Positions 14,169-20,530 of a DNA stretch of 49,704 nucleotides are shown in pieces. Positions within the stretch are counted from its first letter, which is position 1; every line of letters begins with the position of its first letter. A model generated the notes under the pieces. It ran no database searches and was not told the DNA's origin. It worked only from the letters and a program-made list of their open reading frames with translations. Both the position numbers and the translations under genes were made by a program. Origin of the DNA: a virus (taxonomy: Duplodnaviria; Heunggongvirae; Uroviricota; Caudoviricetes); the IMG/VR virus record IMGVR_UViG_2703718837_000001; one strand, given 5' to 3'.

Positions 14169-15104
14169 TTAGAATGGTACATTGTCATCCATCTCAAAGT
14201 CTGGGGGTGCAACAGATATTCGATGAATTTCATTTCTTTCCATATCCATCATTTGATCCTCCTGCTCCCCATCATCGTACCACGATGAAGTGTCTACCTC
14301 TAAAGCTTCAGATATGACTTCAAATGTTTCAGGAGAGTCTAAGTGAGAAGCCATGTGCAACGTGAACGGATAACTTTCTTCTAGGCTAACCCCATCATTC
14401 CTAGAACCATATTCTTGAGTAACATAGACAGTACCGGAAGCATATATATTGATGTACTCATCATCAATCGACGTGATTCCAAATTCTTCGACTTCAGTGT
14501 AATCTACATACGCATGATTCGCGATAGTCACTAGGTTTTCAGGCATAGAGCTTACCGCCGTGTCAATAACTGCATTTCTAATTTTATCTTCGAGAGTACG
14601 AATTAATTCATCTCTACAAATATGTATACCATTTAGTATTTCTGTAGCGATCTGCAGTATTTGTTTGGCCTTCAGGAAGAACTCTTGAGGTGATGGATGC
14701 ATATATTTCTCTGTTATATGCGTATATTTATTTAAGAAGAAATAAAGCTTAAGCATCTCATCTATTCTTTCATTCGACTCCTCCAGGAACTCTTCCCCCA
14801 AGTACGCATCTGAAATTTTAGCTTGAGAACAGTATTTTAAACGCTGTCTTCTAGATATTTCGTAATGTTCATGTTCTCTCTTATACCACGATGCTTGTAA
14901 TAATTTATCATTCGGAGATTTTTTCTCGATAATATGCTTTATTAGCTCGCGAATTGAAAATGCAAAGTTATGAAAACGTAATGGGTTGCCATGTGATGCA
15001 TAATTTCGCAAACAAGCTGTGAATAATTCTTTTTCAAAATCAGCTTCGAGGTGACTCATAAAATCATTCACAAAATCAAGAGATTGTAGTTTTTTAAGCT
15101 TCAT
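14169..15104 (-). CDS. Orphan 311-aa protein: helical N-domain, beta-rich middle, hyper-acidic linker and an SSB-C-terminal-tip-like end (..PPDFEMDDNVPF)
   Basis: Single long ORF in a very AT-rich segment. The C-terminus is compared from memory with the E. coli SSB tail ..EPPMDFDDDIPF. RNYASH (aa 33-38) resembles an Rx4H motif. No other family recognised. Confidence 0.7.
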   Translation of the reverse strand: MKLKKLQSLDFVNDFMSHLEADFEKELFTACLRNYASHGNPLRFHNFAFSIRELIKHIIEKKSPNDKLLQASWYKREHEHYEISRRQRLKYCSQAKISDAYLGEEFLEESNERIDEMLKLYFFLNKYTHITEKYMHPSPQEFFLKAKQILQIATEILNGIHICRDELIRTLEDKIRNAVIDTAVSSMPENLVTIANHAYVDYTEVEEFGITSIDDEYINIYASGTVYVTQEYGSRNDGVSLEESYPFTLHMASHLDSPETFEVISEALEVDTSSWYDDGEQEDQMMDMERNEIHRISVAPPDFEMDDNVPF

Positions 15105-15927
15105 CGTGTAACCTTATATTCCTGTCTCAGATTTAATATCGGATTCAACCGAATCCTCTTCTTCTAAATTTTAAAGTCGTGTAACATTACAAAATATTCA
15201 AGGTTAAATTGAACATATATCATTGTTATTTAGATGTAAGTATATCTGAGCACTCGTTACAATACCAGAATATTACCATCATTCATCATAAAGTAACTAG
15301 CGAAGGTGTGGCGGAAACGTAAGTAAGTTGTTCTCCAGGTAATTCAATACCTGTTCTTTCTAAATAGCTGCGCGGAATAGTGATCTACTTTCGTCCGCCC
15401 TTGCAGGGCGAGACATTAGGTCGGCGTCCCCTACCTGACCGTGCTGCATCAGGCTTGAGTGTGTTGCCCATATGCAACATACCACACATCAGTAAACGGC
15501 AAGTGTAGTAGTATTAGGCGCAGAAATTTAGTACAGCCCAGAATGCGCCGTAACAATCAATAAACCACTACACCCGCGCCCTGGCTGCAATTCGGTAACA
15601 GGGGATCCCCCCTAGCTTCCAGCGTGATTAGCGCCTTCAGCATGACGGAATATACCCGTAAATACGAGGAACTCTACCCAAAGGCTGTTAAGAACCGGCT
15701 GTTACGCTGAATGAAAAAGGACGTAACAGGTAAGGACGCTGACCAGAAGATGGCCCCTTCTCGTTCATCTGGTTAATCAAACCAGCGCCCTTGCCTGTTA
15801 TGCCTCCTCGTTCCCTAATACACAGACGGGGACAACCCCGTGGTGTCAGGCTTCTTAGGCCGCAACCATCATCAGATCATCGTTTGCATTTACTTTAATG
15901 GTCAGTTTGTGACTGCTCCCCGCCCTG

Positions 15928-17221
15928 TCGGGCGAGGCTTCCCACTTCTCAGGCCACTACCGTCTGTGCGACGGATTTACGCTGGCCTCCATGGGCGGAG
16001 ACGACGAGTCCCGCCGCCTGTAGTTCCAGTATTCCTTTTTGCCGGATGTTGAGTGCCGCATTGATATCGCGGTCGTGCTCTGCTCCACATTCAGGGCATC
16101 GCCAGATGCGTTTATGAAGCGGCATTTCCGGCATTTTGTAACCACAACAATAGCAGGCTTTCGAACTGGCAAACCACTGGTCGAGTTTTACTAGGTGAAC
16201 GCCTTTTTCCGCTGCCTTGTACTCCAGCTTTGTGATGAAGCTATGCCAGCCTGCATCACCTATCGCTCTTGCCAGATTGTGGTTTTTCATCATGTTGGCT
16301 GTTTTCAGCGTCTCGACAATTACCGCTTGGTTTTCGTCAACAATTGCACGAGAGAGCTTGTGTTGAAAATCAGCACGGGCATTAGCCACCCGTTCGTGTA
16401 ACGCTGCCAGACGGATTGTGGCCTTTTTACGATTCGCGCTTCCCTTTTGCTTGCGGGATAAGGCTTTTTGTTTGCGTCGCAGATTACGGCTGGCATTGAT
16501 GAGATGGCGGGGATTTGCAATTTTTACCCCATCAGACTTGATGGCAAAGTGCGATAATCCCATATCTAGGCCAGTAACTGTTGATATCAACGTGGGTTTT
16601 GCCGGAGCTTCCATGCCATCATCACAGAGAATTGAAGCATAGTATTTCCCCGTTGCTGAACAGGTGATAGTGATGCTTTTCAGCTTTCCATGAAGTTCAC
16701 GGTGAAGGCGTGCTTCTATTAGGGACAGTTTTGGGATTTTGATGGCATTATCCAGCACCTTAATCCCGACACAGTGATAGCTCGATTGTTTTCCGTGTTT
16801 ACGTTTAAACGTCGGGAACCGCGCTTTCAGCTTCGGATTAAAAAAGTTGGAAAATGCCACATCAAGATTAATTACCGCCTGTTGCAACGCAATAGAATCA
16901 TATTCTTTAAGCCATCCATACCTGCGGGATTTCTTTGCCACTGCAAGCAGCGGTTTCAGATCGTTACGCGGACTTAAATTTACTCCATGTCGCTGGTAAG
17001 CATGTTTTTTGATGTGAAGAGCTTTGTTGTACGCAAAGCGCACTGCACCGAACTGGGCATTGAGGTACTCTGCCTGTTCTGGTGTCGGGTAAATGCGTAC
17101 TTTTGTTGCTCTTAACATAGTCACCGCTCATTGATACAGGCTTTTTATGCTAACACCGTAATGATTTTTTTAAAGCCCTGTTGGCTTTTCGCCTTATATA
17201 CCCGCCCGCATTAGGCGAGGG
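15928..17221 (-). mobile_element. Minimal IS200/IS605-type (IS1341-like, tnpB-only) element bounded by similar imperfect palindromes; true ends uncertain
   Basis: ccccgccc-tgtc-gggcgagg (15928-15947, just past the tnpB stop) and acccgccc-gcatta-ggcgaggg (17200-17221, upstream of tnpB) share CCGCCC-N4-6-GGCGAGG in the same orientation. A third copy lies at 15394-15413. Confidence 0.45.
15949..17124 (-). CDS. tnpB: TnpB (IS200/IS605-family OrfB, RNA-guided RuvC nuclease), apparently intact
   Basis: 391 aa. N-terminal KVRIYPTPEQ...FGAVRFAYN (OrfB_IS605 helix), RuvC-I GLDMG, RuvC-II VIVETL, zinc ribbon CYCCG...CPECG, RuvC-III HDRDINAALNI. No adjacent tnpA. Confidence 0.9.
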   Translation of the reverse strand: MTMLRATKVRIYPTPEQAEYLNAQFGAVRFAYNKALHIKKHAYQRHGVNLSPRNDLKPLLAVAKKSRRYGWLKEYDSIALQQAVINLDVAFSNFFNPKLKARFPTFKRKHGKQSSYHCVGIKVLDNAIKIPKLSLIEARLHRELHGKLKSITITCSATGKYYASILCDDGMEAPAKPTLISTVTGLDMGLSHFAIKSDGVKIANPRHLINASRNLRRKQKALSRKQKGSANRKKATIRLAALHERVANARADFQHKLSRAIVDENQAVIVETLKTANMMKNHNLARAIGDAGWHSFITKLEYKAAEKGVHLVKLDQWFASSKACYCCGYKMPEMPLHKRIWRCPECGAEHDRDINAALNIRQKGILELQAAGLVVSAHGGQRKSVAQTVVA

Positions 17222-17273
17222 TTTACGGCGTTTTTCGCTAAACCGCCGCAAAGTCGCTAACCATGACGAAACC

Positions 17274-17488: not shown

Positions 17489-20400
17489 TTATAGCAATAT
17501 TGCTATAACGTCATGAGCAACACCACGAGTGTCTCCCTTACAAGACACAGAACGTCTGGCAAAAAGAGGTTCCACTCTGAAGCCACTGTCCTGATAAAGT
17601 TCTCTGATGTTTGGCGCGCCACTGTTAGTAATGAGAACCTTTGCACCTCGGCGATGAGCATCCGTCAACAGAGACACCAGGCGTTTTTGCTCTTCAAACT
17701 TAAAGTCATGACCGGAATAGTTCGTGAACCCCTCTGTATTGGGGAGCGGTTCATACGGCGGATCGCAAAAGATGACATCTCCTTCTCCGGCAGCTTCAAT
17801 CACCGCTGCAAAATCACCGCATACAAACTCAGACCGCCCTTCCGCACCGAGGAAGGCTTCCATCTCCTGTAATGGAAAATGCGTAGACTTATACTTCCCA
17901 TACCCGACATTGAACTCACCGGCCTGGTTGTAGCGCGTCAATCCATTAAAACAATGTCGGTTCAGGAACAAAAACGCCGCTGCGCGATGTAAATCATCAT
18001 AGACTTGTTTGTTAAACGCATTCCGTACTGCCAGGAATCCCTCCTGGGTGTTGTAGTCCAGGAAGAAACGATGTGCCAGAGTGATAAGTGAATGCGCCTC
18101 GCGTTGCAGAGTCTTGTAAAAGTTAATCAGGTCAGCATTCACATCATTTAGCAGATTTTCCTGATATCCGGCATTCATGAAGACAGCTCCGCCACCAACG
18201 AAAGGTTCAATCAGGCGCTTCCCTTCTGGCAAATAGCGAAAGATTTGTTCCAGAACACCAAATTTTCCACCAGCCCATTTGAATATGGGCCGTTCGAATT
18301 CTGCCGCTGGTTTAACCTTTCGCTCTTTTGTTTCACTCCCTTCTTTTTGCCGACATGCAGCCTTAGTAATCCGATCGCCAATCCAGCGCATTACTGGTAT
18401 TGCCATACTATTTCCGATCGCTTTGTAACGCGGTCCGTCAGCTGCAAGCATCGCGGCCTCTTCTTCGTTTAAATCAGGATAGTTATTGCGAAGGTATGCT
18501 AGTTCATCTGAAGAAACTTTTTTACGCTTTCCCGTAGGGATCAACGTATGCCAATCAGGAAAACCTTGCAGCCTTTCACATTCGACAGGGGTAAGACGGC
18601 GCATTCTATCGTCGCCGAGCAATACAATTGGTGCTTCATGGTTACATGTCAAAGTTGGTGCCGAATTATCGGTTTTTATCTCAGCCCCTCCTTGCCCATG
18701 TGCCATGGCAATTATGTTTGTATCATCGCAAGATCTGATAGCGATGTTTGAAGTATATCTGGTAGTTTCCTTCCCCTCGCCTCTGCTCGGCGCAATATCC
18801 CGGCGCTCGCCTTCGAACTCAAAAAGTACCGTTGCGGGATCGAGGTCTGTTCGAGCACTTGCGACAACAAACACGCGTCGGCGTCGTTGTGCCACTCCGA
18901 AGTATTGGGCATCAAGGATTCTCCAGGCCACCTTTCGCTGCGGTCCATAAATACAACCACACTGCGGCCACTTTGGAGCATGGCAACCGGTTTTGCCATC
19001 CCACCGCCAGAACGCGTTACTTTTTCCTGATTCAGGTCGATCACCTGGTTCAAATGGCGCATCTTCTCCAGCCAATCCGGCAAGGAAACATCCGAAGGCG
19101 TTATCTGCCGATGACAAGACCCCTGGGACATTTTCCCAGACGATAACGGCTGGTTTGAGAAATGACTCAGCCCGTTTGTCGTCAATTGCATTTGCAAGCT
19201 CCACATACTTTAAAGTTAGCGCGCCACGCTCATCATCAAGCCCACCACGTAATCCAGCGATACTGAATGCCTGACAGTTATGGACCACCGCACCATTGAG
19301 GATATAGGAATGATCACCTTCGACTTCTATGTTGTATACAGTATCTAGGCCTACCGATTTAAACTCTTTGACTGTTCGTAAAAGCATTCCATGAGCCAAT
19401 CTTGATTTACGTGACAATTTCTGCGGGCAGATTGTTACCTGATAATAATTCCGTTGATTTACCACGCGATCCTCAATCACTTTTTTGGGCTCAACTTCAA
19501 TAAAGCTGACCGAAGAAACATAACCACAAGTCTGTGACAACTCCGCAACGCCCCAAGCAAGCGCAGGACTAACACTATTAATTCTAAATCCCGCTTTACC
19601 ACTTGGTGTCCCATCAGTATCAAGATAGCCTTGTAAAAACACATGACGCAATGGATGCGACATCACCCATGCAGGGATACGCTTAGCATGGCTTAACTCG
19701 CCAAAATGTTCATTAAGCCAATTGGCATAACACGTATCATTCAAGGTTACTTTGATGCTCCCTCGGATTTCGCTTGCCACGGAAAATATGTTTTCTGGTA
19801 TGCGGCAATGAAACTTTCTCAATTTCTGGCAATTTATGCCAAAAACAACCGCCTTCTTAGATTTACCTCTCCATCTCCTAATATATCCATCGCCAACATA
19901 AGCGCCCGCAAGATACATAGCCTGTTCTTCAGACAAGAACCGAGAACAAATATCTGGAGATGCAATATTGAAATTAGTTAGAGCACACCATTGATATCCC
20001 GGCATATCACATGCTGCTCGCCATTCCGGTTCAGACAACAACTCTCTCTTAAAATATGTGCCATTTTTCCGGGTGTTTTGGGCTTTCCACCGAACCGCCA
20101 GGAAGGGATGGTCATTGGTTGTTCTTATACCTAAAGGCTGCCCAACGGCATTAAGTAACCCCGTATTAGCTATTTTTGAACCAACTCTTTTTACTTGTTG
20201 TAACCGCCCGAGATGACTGACTACGTAATCGCCAGGGCAAACATCTTCTATTGGTTTATAACCATTTTTACAAAGAACCATATGCCCCGCGGTAAAACAT
20301 GGTGTCCCTCCCACCAGCACATCAGGGGCTTCAATTTCTCCGGCCTGGACTTTTTGGGCGAGTTTTGTCATGTCGCCAAGGTTCGCGACATGGGGCCAGC

Positions 20401-20530
20401 GGTGCGCAAGAACGGCAGAGGGAAAAGGCTCGATTTCAGCAAACCACGCCGGACGCATACCCAACGGTTCCCATGCAATGCTCGCGGCTTCAATTCCACT
20501 GCAAACAGATCCATAGCACAGCTCTCTCAC
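17489..20530 (-). CDS. dmt: Bifunctional DNA methyltransferase Dmt (N-terminal C5-cytosine MTase plus C-terminal Dam-like N6-adenine MTase) interrupted by an intein
   Basis: C5 motifs: I ([11 protein letters not shown]), IV (GGTP/CQAFS, split), VI (ENVPG), VIII (QRRRRVF), X (GNSMAIPV). Dam part: [21 protein letters not shown]. 1013 aa including the 341-aa insertion. Confidence 0.92.
19277..20299 (-). other. Intein (Hint domain plus LAGLIDADG homing endonuclease), Dmt residues 78-418
   Basis: Starts with CFTAGHMV (block A); TNDHPF (block B); [11 protein letters not shown] and [10 protein letters not shown] (two LAGLIDADG motifs); [21 protein letters not shown] followed by Cys (blocks F/G plus the +1 nucleophile). 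Excision recreates GGTPCQAFS. Confidence 0.9.

What the first reader, a model, noticed from the sequence alone, without database searches (positions are those of the whole stretch)
19277..20299. LAGLIDADG intein inserted exactly at the catalytic Cys of the C5-methyltransferase half of Dmt
Dmt reads ..DVLVGGTP|CFTAGHMV..(341 aa)..GAVVHN|CQAFSIAG... Deleting residues 78-418 restores the canonical motif IV GGTPCQAFS. The insert carries Hint blocks A, B, F and G and two LAGLIDADG motifs. The +1 nucleophile for splicing is the methyltransferase's own catalytic cysteine, so cytosine methylation by this Dam-Dcm fusion is strictly splicing-dependent. Redox or temperature control of splicing would therefore gate the enzyme. 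The homing endonuclease should also attack intein-less dmt alleles of co-resident P1-like elements, which may act as an incompatibility or competition weapon.
Basis: partly seen in the sequence, partly recalled or inferred. Interest (0 to 1): 0.7.

Follow-up and report, generated by a model that had tools for sequence, protein, structure and literature searches.

The report
Homing intein splitting P1-like Dmt methyltransferase
The DNA methyltransferase gene of this P1-like phage-plasmid is interrupted, exactly at the catalytic cysteine of its cytosine-methylase half, by a genuine self-splicing, self-spreading protein element (an intein), which is a real but ordinary kind of selfish element that nobody seems to have annotated here.

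Summary
The 1013-aa ORF at 17489..20530 (-) is a P1-family Dmt, with a C5-cytosine MTase half followed by a Dam half. It carries a precise 341-aa in-frame insert (19277..20299) between Pro77 and the motif IV cysteine. Phage P7 Dam (672 aa) is the exact insert-free counterpart.

The insert has every sequence hallmark of a class-1 intein: Cys1, TxxH, blocks F and G ending in HN, and a +1 Cys. It also has two LAGLIDADG motifs with their acidic residues. Its AlphaFold model (pLDDT 91.6) matches PI-SceI and other homing-endonuclease inteins. The +1 Cys aligns with M.HhaI Cys81.

The intein is 99% or more identical in 133 plasmids and in 152 of 5426 complete E. coli genomes, about 31% of dmt alleles. 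It occurs in three specificity-domain backgrounds and 18 N-extein haplotypes. Its diversity is 3-8 times lower than that of its flanks, and a roughly 280-bp block of linked flanking markers is centred on the insertion point. This fits homing with co-conversion.

Homologous inteins occupy the same site in C5-MTases of many phyla. Splicing, cleavage, redox gating and a "weapon" role are untested. Verdict: a new, unannotated member of a known kind, of moderate interest.

The parts
17489..20530 (-). dmt ORF, the 1013-aa precursor: N-extein, intein and C-extein. GTG start overlapping the hrdC/rdgC stop.
20300..20530 (-). N-extein, aa 1-77. Holds C5-MTase motif I ([10 protein letters not shown], 20480-20509) and the first half of motif IV (VLVGGTP, 20300-20320). 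The -1 residue is Pro77.
19277..20299 (-). Intein, aa 78-418 (341 aa, 38.3 kDa): a Hint splicing domain with a nested LAGLIDADG endonuclease domain.
20261..20299 (-). Intein block A ([13 protein letters not shown]). Cys78 is the Cys1 nucleophile.
   Evidence: C1, F2, A4 and G5 are invariant in 10 homologs of 29-52% identity
20099..20131 (-). Intein block B ([11 protein letters not shown]), with T138 and H141 forming TxxH.
   Evidence: T61 and H64 (intein numbering) are invariant
19883..19915 (-). LAGLIDADG motif 1 ([11 protein letters not shown]), acidic residue D214.
   Evidence: G132, D137 and G138 are invariant; aligned to the PI-PkoII motif
19607..19639 (-). LAGLIDADG motif 2 ([11 protein letters not shown]), acidic residue D306.
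   Evidence: G224 and G230 are invariant and D229 is present in at least 90%; Pfam LAGLIDADG_3
19298..19345 (-). Intein block F ([16 protein letters not shown]).
   Evidence: V321, N323, V326 and D329 are invariant; TIGR01443
19274..19297 (-). Intein block G plus the +1 residue (NGAVVHN|C). Asn418 is the cyclising residue. Cys419 is both the +1 nucleophile and the MTase catalytic Cys.
17492..19276 (-). C-extein, aa 419-1013. Holds the rest of the C5-MTase (motif IV CQAFS, VI ENV, VIII QRRRR, IX, X), a variable specificity region, and the Dam domain (aa 747-1010, DPPY at 17753-17764).
18501..18519 (-). Sequence identical to the late promoter LPdam2 predicted in phage P7. It lies downstream of the intein and upstream of the Dam domain, so it could allow Dam expression independent of the intein.
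   Evidence: annotation-based prediction, not tested

Best explanation
This is a canonical class-1 intein with a nested LAGLIDADG homing endonuclease. It is inserted between Pro77 and the catalytic cysteine of motif IV in the C5-cytosine methyltransferase half of a P1-family Dmt (C5-MTase + Dam fusion).

Shown here:
- The insert is precise and in frame.
- It has all the splicing-block residues and both endonuclease motifs.
- It is predicted to fold like PI-SceI-type inteins.
- The +1 Cys is the homolog of M.HhaI Cys81.
- The element is patchily distributed among otherwise mosaic dmt alleles.
- Its diversity is very low, and a short block of linked flanking markers is centred on the insertion point.

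Inferred:
- After translation of the 113-kDa precursor, Cys78 makes the thioester at the Pro77-Cys78 bond.
- Cys419 attacks that thioester, and Asn418 cyclises.
- A 74.6-kDa Dmt with a restored GGTPCQAFS loop is released, together with a free 38.3-kDa intein.
- When an intein-plus and an intein-less P1-like genome meet in one cell, the free intein cuts the uninterrupted GGTP|CQAFS coding sequence. Repair from the intein-plus copy then copies the intein and about 100-150 bp of each flank into the empty allele.
- Only the cytosine-methylase activity needs splicing. The Dam half is probably independent of it.
For: A precise 341-aa gap against P7 Dam and P1 Dmt restores GGTPCQAFS.

Pfam and NCBIfam give Hint_2, LAGLIDADG_3, Intein_splicing and TIGR01443 matches.

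Ten same-site homologs of 29-52% identity keep C1, T61/H64, D137, K206, N323, D329 and N341 invariant, D229 in at least 90% of them, and the +1 Cys in all.

The AF2 model has pLDDT 91.6 and pTM 0.89. Foldseek top hits are PI-SceI (E 3e-17), the TliVMA intein, PI-PfuI and PI-PkoII, followed by I-DmoI and I-SceI. A profile search hits PI-PkoII and PI-SceI.

In the M.HhaI alignment, [12 protein letters not shown] matches AGFPCQAFSISG, so the +1 Cys corresponds to HhaI residue 81.

Prevalence: 133 PLSDB plasmids, of which 129 are at least 99% identical; 152 of 5426 complete E. coli genomes, against 493 genomes that carry dmt.

The intein sits in three variable-region backgrounds and 18 N-extein haplotypes among 30 loci, and 27 of those 30 keep an intact full-length ORF.

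Nucleotide diversity is 0.0052 in the intein, against 0.044 in the N-extein and 0.015 in the C-extein of the same alleles.

Polymorphisms are 13 synonymous and 13 nonsynonymous over 227 and 796 sites, giving pN/pS of about 0.28. There is no stop codon in 19 copies.

Marker association with intein presence is 1.0 at position -1 and 0.6-0.8 from about -120 to +160. It falls to background beyond -231 and +250.

Intein GC is 42.8%, against 56.7% and 48.8% in the flanks.

Homologous inteins occupy the same P|C, D|C or E|C position of PF00145 methyltransferases in more than 30 species of several phyla.
Against: There is no experimental evidence of splicing or cleavage for this element.

The -1 residue is proline. 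Proline at -1 blocks or strongly impairs most inteins tested (PMC6486613), so splicing could be slow or incomplete.

Background recombination among P1-like elements is high, since intein-less alleles are mosaic too. Mosaicism and the linked block therefore do not prove endonuclease activity.

C5-methylation by Dmt has never been demonstrated according to the P1 and P7 annotations ('perhaps'). Selection for a spliced product is therefore assumed, not shown.

The ORF must stay open through the intein anyway for the downstream Dam domain to be translated. That weakens 'intact ORF' as evidence for splicing.
Confidence: 0.85

Rival explanations
1. The intein is splicing-competent but its endonuclease is no longer active. 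The element persists and moves between dmt alleles only through the frequent general homologous recombination among P1-like phage-plasmids.
For: Intein-less alleles are themselves highly mosaic, so recombination alone can place a segment in many backgrounds. One homolog (P0009) has DTNG in place of DTDG in motif 2, which shows that endonuclease decay occurs in this family. Window residue D277 replaces a Gly that is at least 90% conserved.
Against: Both LAGLIDADG acidic residues and the invariant Lys are intact. pN/pS is about 0.28, with nonsynonymous changes not concentrated in the endonuclease domain. Intein diversity is 3-8 times lower than that of the flanks. The association block is sharply centred on the insertion point, as expected from break-initiated gene conversion.
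Confidence: 0.12
2. The insert does not splice efficiently, or at all, in vivo. It acts as a permanent disruption of a dispensable C5-MTase half, while the Dam half remains functional, either in the precursor or from an internal start.
For: Pro at -1 is unfavourable for most tested inteins. C5 activity of Dmt is unproven. A predicted internal late promoter and a Met with a Shine-Dalgarno-like GAGG lie upstream of the Dam domain. In Mannheimia, a homologous intein survives next to a truncated C-extein.
Against: All splicing residues are conserved across homologs of 29-52% identity that also have Pro at -1. All C5-MTase motifs in the exteins of intein-plus alleles remain intact, and 27 of 30 ORFs are complete. 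Purifying selection acts on the intein.
Confidence: 0.08
3. The intein has been domesticated as a conditional switch, for example through a Cys1-Cys+1 disulfide or temperature sensitivity. The switch times cytosine methylation to a stage of the P1 life cycle.
For: Both splice-junction nucleophiles are cysteines, and the intein has 11 Cys. Insertion in the catalytic loop makes activity all-or-none. Nothing further supports this.
Against: The patchy 31% distribution, with intein-less alleles of the same elements thriving, argues for a selfish element rather than a required regulator. No data bear on conditionality.
Confidence: 0.05

Closest known systems
Actinobacteriophage DNA-methylase inteins (Kelley et al. 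2016, PMC5050341; Gosselin et al. 2023, PMC9957025; 2025 survey, bioRxiv 10.1101/2025.01.02.630785)
   Same: These are LAGLIDADG-containing class-1 inteins inside phage DNA methyltransferase genes. They have a patchy distribution and show evidence of transfer between divergent alleles. The 2025 survey lists both N-6/N-4 (PF01555) and C-5 (IPR001525) methylases as intein hosts.
   Different: The characterised cases are N4/N6 methylases of actinophages. Here the host is a C5-MTase + Dam fusion of an enterobacterial P1-like phage-plasmid, and the insertion point is the motif IV catalytic Cys. No paper found mentions an intein in P1-family dmt.
PI-SceI (yeast VMA1 intein) and archaeal homing-endonuclease inteins (TliVMA, PI-PfuI, PI-PkoII)
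   Same: They share the two-domain architecture of a Hint splicing domain with a nested double-LAGLIDADG endonuclease. They are the best structural and profile matches. They too are inserted at a conserved catalytic site of the host enzyme.
   Different: Sequence identity is only 11-17%. This intein is more compact (341 aa against 454-537 aa). The host protein and taxon differ, and the -1 residue is Pro.
Same-site inteins in other bacterial C5-MTases (e.g. Metarhizobium album L007, Mannheimia haemolytica P0011, Pseudoscardovia suis L013, Arthrobacter cryoconiti L032)
   Same: They are homologous inteins (27-52% identity) at the identical position, immediately before the motif IV Cys of PF00145 enzymes. 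The closest ones also sit in exteins homologous to Dmt.
   Different: They are annotated only as 'Hint domain-containing' or 'DOD-type homing endonuclease' proteins. Their hosts lack the Dam fusion. Some are decayed (L042 has 6 stop codons; P0011 has a truncated C-extein).
Homing and marker exclusion by phage intron or free-standing endonucleases (T-even and SPO1/SP82 systems; recalled from general knowledge, not checked here)
   Same: The proposed behaviour is the same: during mixed infection the endonuclease cuts the competitor's empty allele, and the element plus linked flanking markers are over-inherited.
   Different: Those elements act at the RNA-intron or intergenic level. Here the element is removed at the protein level, and the carrier is a plasmid-prophage.

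Membership tests
Class-1 intein (Hint/HINT superfamily) | N-terminal nucleophile (Cys/Ser) at intein position 1 (block A) | tested here: met
   Cys78. C1, F2, A4 and G5 are invariant in 10 homologs.
Class-1 intein (Hint/HINT superfamily) | Block B TxxH | tested here: met
   T138-N-D-H141. T61 and H64 are invariant.
Class-1 intein (Hint/HINT superfamily) | Blocks F and G ending in His-Asn, followed by a Cys/Ser/Thr +1 extein residue | tested here: met
   [14 protein letters not shown]...NGAVVHN|C. TIGR01443 scores 28.8 bits against a cut-off of 15.6. N341 is invariant.
Class-1 intein (Hint/HINT superfamily) | Hint fold | tested here: met
   AF2 pLDDT 91.6. Foldseek probability 1.0 to PI-SceI, TliVMA, PI-PfuI and the Prp8 and gp41-1 mini-inteins. 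This is a predicted structure, not a solved one.
Class-1 intein (Hint/HINT superfamily) | In-frame insertion in a conserved host motif, with homologs that lack it and read through the motif | tested here: met
   P7 Dam and P1 Dmt read GGTPCQAFS / WGTPCQAFS. 65 intein-less IMG/VR alleles do the same. Pfam PF00145 is contiguous after in-silico splicing.
Class-1 intein (Hint/HINT superfamily) | Autocatalytic protein splicing that yields ligated exteins and free intein | not testable with these tools
   This needs expression with SDS-PAGE or mass spectrometry. Caveat: Pro at -1 impairs most tested inteins.
LAGLIDADG (dodecapeptide) homing endonuclease | Two LAGLIDADG motifs, each with a conserved acidic residue | tested here: met
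   [11 protein letters not shown] (D214) and [11 protein letters not shown] (D306). PF14528 scores 32.6-36.5 bits. Conservation is shown.
LAGLIDADG (dodecapeptide) homing endonuclease | Alpha-beta-beta-alpha-beta-beta-alpha pseudo-dimer fold | tested here: met
   Foldseek hits to I-DmoI, I-SceI and I-OnuI over the central domain. The secondary-structure order is given.
LAGLIDADG (dodecapeptide) homing endonuclease | Site-specific cleavage of the intein-less allele, and homing | tested here: inconclusive
   Only indirect evidence exists: patchy distribution, three TRD backgrounds, low intein diversity, and a linkage block centred on the site. Recombination alone is not excluded.
C5-cytosine DNA methyltransferase (PF00145), the host protein | Motif IV Pro-Cys catalytic dipeptide, plus motifs I, VI (ENV), VIII (QxRxR), IX and X | tested here: met
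   All are present in the exteins. The +1 Cys aligns with M.HhaI residue 81. PF00145 scores 127 bits after splicing.
C5-cytosine DNA methyltransferase (PF00145), the host protein | Demonstrated 5-methylcytosine formation | not testable with these tools
   The P1 and P7 records say 'perhaps'. No paper was found that shows it.

The most novel reading that the evidence does not exclude
This widespread family of C5-MTase motif IV inteins, including the P1-like one, is naturally adapted to splice with proline at the -1 position, a context that defeats most characterised inteins. In P1-like elements its two-cysteine junction might additionally make cytosine methylation conditional on the redox or physiological state of the cell. 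The intein would then be both a selfish element and a post-translational switch, and a useful tool for 'traceless' splicing at Pro-Cys junctions.
Probability: 0.12. Interest if true: 0.6.

Novelty: new member of a known kind. Interest (0 to 1): 0.4.

Why it matters
P1 is one of the classic model phages, and P1-like phage-plasmids are now followed closely as carriers of resistance genes. Yet about a third of their dmt genes in complete E. coli genomes carry a mobile intein that public annotation calls simply a 'Dam family methyltransferase', and that no searchable paper mentions.

The intein explains the 1013-aa and 1095-aa 'long' Dmt proteins. It is a ready-made marker of recombination between co-infecting P1-like elements. 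It also offers a tractable system, because a laboratory P1 stock (OP279344) carries it, for studying intein homing in E. coli.

It shows as well that the catalytic Cys of C5-methyltransferases is a recurrent intein target across phyla, with an unusual native Pro at -1 that could interest protein engineers.

It does not change how we understand inteins. Insertion at an active-site nucleophile is their usual habit.

Tried and rejected
(1) Chance or misalignment. Rejected because the gap against P7 and P1 is exact and the domain scores exceed curated cut-offs.

(2) An intron or other non-protein insertion. Rejected because the insert is in frame with no stop codon in 19-30 copies and has the full set of intein blocks.

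(3) 'Already described'. Nine literature searches were run, using intein with P1-like, dmt, RCS47, phage-plasmid, cytosine methyltransferase and cytosine-specific. None found a mention for P1-family dmt. The library excludes most subscription journals and intein databases, so prior notice cannot be ruled out.

(4) Identifying the donor of the intein. The nearest non-P1 relatives are only 47-52% identical, so the source remains unknown.

(5) Counting the intein-plus fraction in IMG/VR. This was not possible because only the best 80 of 398 matching stretches are returned. The E. coli complete-genome counts were used instead.

(6) Looking for genomes that stably hold both intein-plus and intein-less dmt, which would be a test of endonuclease activity. 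The search tools list only a sample of rows, so this was not done.

(7) The rest of the window was inspected only as far as needed for context.
Full report
**What is there**

The window encodes a 1013-aa ORF on the minus strand (17489..20530, GTG start overlapping the stop of an rdgC/hrdC homolog). Pfam and NCBIfam find a C5-cytosine methyltransferase (PF00145) in the N-terminal two thirds and a Dam-type N6-adenine methyltransferase (PF02086, TIGR00571) at residues ~747-1010. In between they find Hint_2, LAGLIDADG_3, Intein_splicing and the intein C-terminal signature TIGR01443.

The gene is 95-98% identical at DNA level to dmt/dam of P1-family phages. The exact protein is WP_061359691.1 of E. 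coli, named only 'Dam family site-specific DNA-(adenine-N6)-methyltransferase'.

**Checking the observation**

I aligned the protein with four relatives: phage P7 Dam (672 aa), P1 Dmt (754 aa), RCS47 Dmt (1095 aa) and the Dmt of a laboratory P1 stock, OP279344 (1013 aa).
- Residues 78-418 form a single clean insertion between Pro77 and Cys419.
- P7 and P1 lack the insertion and read GGTPCQAFS / WGTPCQAFS straight through.
- After in-silico excision the PF00145 match becomes contiguous across motif IV, and the score rises from 106.5 to 127.4 bits.
- phmmer against the PDB aligns [12 protein letters not shown] with AGFPCQAFSISG of M.HhaI. This places the +1 Cys at HhaI position 81, which is the catalytic nucleophile of that enzyme (established knowledge).

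**Is the insert an intein?**

All defining sequence features are present:
- Cys1 in block A (CFTAGH).
- TxxH in block B (T138, H141).
- Block F ([14 protein letters not shown]).
- Block G ending in His-Asn, followed by Cys.
- Two dodecapeptide motifs with their acidic residues ([11 protein letters not shown] with D214; [11 protein letters not shown] with D306).

A protein search found relatives of the insert at 47-52% and ~30% identity, nearly all with PF00145 domains around them. In an alignment of ten such inserts, C1, T61, H64, D137, K206, N323, D329 and N341 are invariant, and D229 is kept in at least 90%.

An AlphaFold2 model built on that alignment is confident (pLDDT 91.6, pTM 0.89). 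Its best PDB matches are PI-SceI, the TliVMA and PhoVMA inteins, PI-PfuI and PI-PkoII. These are followed by the free-standing LAGLIDADG enzymes I-DmoI and I-SceI and by mini-inteins. A profile search of PDB sequences agrees. Autocatalytic splicing and DNA cleavage cannot be tested with these tools.

**Distribution and evidence of mobility**

The intein DNA occurs in:
- 133 PLSDB plasmids, 129 of them at least 99% identical. The hosts are Escherichia, Salmonella and Shigella, and almost all are non-mobilizable plasmids of P1-like size.
- 152 of 5426 complete E. coli genomes. The dmt N-terminal region is found in 493 genomes, so roughly 31% of dmt alleles carry the intein.

In loci fetched from IMG/VR and GTDB genomes I found the following.
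- The intein sits in three different variable (specificity) region backgrounds and in 18 N-extein haplotypes among 30 loci.
- 27 of those 30 loci have an intact full-length ORF.
- Nucleotide diversity among intein-plus alleles is 0.0052 in the intein, against 0.044 in the N-extein and 0.015 in the first 480 nt of the C-extein.
- Intein polymorphisms are 13 synonymous and 13 nonsynonymous over 227 and 796 sites (pN/pS about 0.28), with no stop codon in 19 copies.
- The only site that separates all intein-plus from all intein-less alleles is the last base of the N-extein: CCA in 29 of 29 against CCT in 61 of 61.
- Marker association with intein presence is 0.6-0.8 from about -120 to +160 and falls to background beyond -231 and +250.
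- Intein-plus alleles carry flank variants never seen in the intein-less sample. The window itself has a minority junction haplotype (CTGGTGGGAGGGACACCA), shared by 6 of 29 intein-plus loci and by no intein-less locus.
- The intein is more AT-rich (42.8% GC) than either flank.

Together this is the pattern expected from a recently spreading homing element with short co-conversion tracts. However, the high background recombination among P1-like elements means it is not proof of endonuclease activity.

**Wider family**

A scan of one genome per species found homologous inteins (27-48% identity) immediately before the motif IV cysteine in many lineages. The junctions read xxP|CQ, SPD|C(K/T)HFS or SP(E/S)|CT. 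The hosts include Proteobacteria, Firmicutes, Actinobacteria, Chloroflexota and Bacteroidota.

Six in-silico-spliced hosts covering all junction types are PF00145 proteins. A second insertion site, after ENV of motif VI, also exists (L031, L055). The catalytic Cys of C5-methyltransferases is thus a recurrent intein 'allele' site, and the P1-like intein is one branch of it.

**Mechanism, with what is shown and what is inferred**

Shown: the anatomy, fold, conservation, catalytic identity of the +1 Cys, and the population pattern.

Inferred from the established class-1 intein pathway:
1. Cys78 performs an N-S acyl shift at the Pro77-Cys78 bond.
2. Cys419 carries out trans-thioesterification.
3. 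Asn418 cyclises.
4. An S-N shift restores GGTPCQAFS.

Because the intein separates Pro and Cys of the catalytic loop, cytosine methylation should need splicing.

The Dam domain lies about 330 residues downstream. The internal late promoter annotated in P7 (LPdam2) is identical here at 18501-18519, with a Met preceded by GAGG shortly after it. GATC methylation, the activity P1 needs for packaging (PMC12707154), is therefore probably independent of the intein.

One caveat is that the native -1 residue is proline. Most tested inteins do not tolerate this (PMC6486613). Either this family is adapted to it or splicing is slow.

Over-inheritance of the intein and linked markers in mixed infections is the ordinary consequence of homing.

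**Comparison with the known**

Inteins in phage DNA methylases are documented for actinobacteriophages. Those cases are N4/N6 methylases (PMC5050341; PMC9957025). A 2025 survey lists C-5 methylases (IPR001525) among intein hosts. Insertion at catalytic residues is typical of inteins.

I found no paper that mentions an intein in P1-family dmt. Database names do not flag it either. Only fragments are called 'Hint domain-containing' or 'LAGLIDADG family homing endonuclease'. I therefore rate it a new, unannotated member of a known kind.

**Verdict**

This is a real, well-supported intein. Interest is moderate (0.4). The setting is notable: a classic model phage family, a third of alleles affected, and a lab stock that carries the element. 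The Pro(-1) junction is unusual. In concept, though, this is standard intein biology.

Noticed in passing
window 15909-17237 (ORF 15949..17124, - strand): A ~1.33-kb insertion relative to P1, P7 and OP279344 lies just downstream of dmt. It encodes a 391-aa TnpB-type protein (OrfB_IS605, Cas12f1-like TNB and HTH domains), so it looks like an IS200/IS605-family element.
   Followed up: partly
window 14169..15104 (- strand) and the region downstream of dmt: A 311-aa ORF matches both 'pPIWI-associating nuclease' domains (pP_pnuc_1 and pP_pnuc_2). None of the neighbouring ORFs scanned has an Argonaute-type match. The tRNA-Asn and tRNA-Thr genes that follow dmt in P1, P7 and RCS47 are absent: ARAGORN finds no tRNA anywhere in the window.
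   Followed up: partly
window ~18600-18790 (variable region of dmt); loci L085-L164: The region between the conserved C5-MTase core and motif IX comes in at least six length classes among P1-like elements. The distance from C-extein start to Dam segment is 988, 1111, 1234, 1243, 1393 or 1558 nt. This suggests swapping of target-recognition domains. The window has the short P7-type.
   Followed up: partly
window 18501-18519 (- strand): This sequence is identical to the late promoter LPdam2 predicted in P7. It lies inside dmt, upstream of the Dam domain. Met694 downstream is preceded by GAGG. A Dam-only product independent of the intein is therefore possible.
   Followed up: partly
L031 3001-4020, L055 3001-4029: Homologous inteins occupy a second site in C5-methyltransferases, right after ENV of motif VI (WENV|CGA...), in genes whose motif IV PC is uninterrupted.
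   Followed up: partly
P0011 (Mannheimia haemolytica, 439 aa, seen on 578 contigs); L042 3001-3860: These are decay states of the same intein allele. In Mannheimia an intact intein is followed by a truncated, frameshifted C-extein (CQSDKGG...). In a Ruminococcus MAG the intein itself has 6 stop codons.
   Followed up: no
L004 (AF234172, reference P1 c1-100 mod749::IS5), dmt codon 74: The reference P1 Dmt reads VWGTPCQAF (Trp74) in motif IV, where every other allele examined has Gly. It is a singleton haplotype among 65 intein-less alleles. It might impair the C5-MTase of the reference lab strain.
   Followed up: no
L001 (OP279344.1, 'P1 del res del mod'): A laboratory P1 stock used in Argonaute studies carries the intein in a short-TRD dmt (1013 aa), unlike the reference P1 genome. 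This makes it a convenient experimental system.
   Followed up: partly
window 20300-20302 (Pro77 codon CCA) and 20303-20317: The -1 residue is proline. Its third base (A) is the only nucleotide that perfectly distinguishes intein-plus from intein-less alleles (T). The window also has four extra synonymous differences within 16 nt upstream, a minority flank haplotype seen only in intein-plus alleles.
   Followed up: yes
NZ_CP012497.1 and NZ_CP015229.1 (E. coli 06-00048): One strain carries the intein both on a plasmid and in the chromosome. Five chromosomal copies exist among complete E. coli genomes.
   Followed up: no
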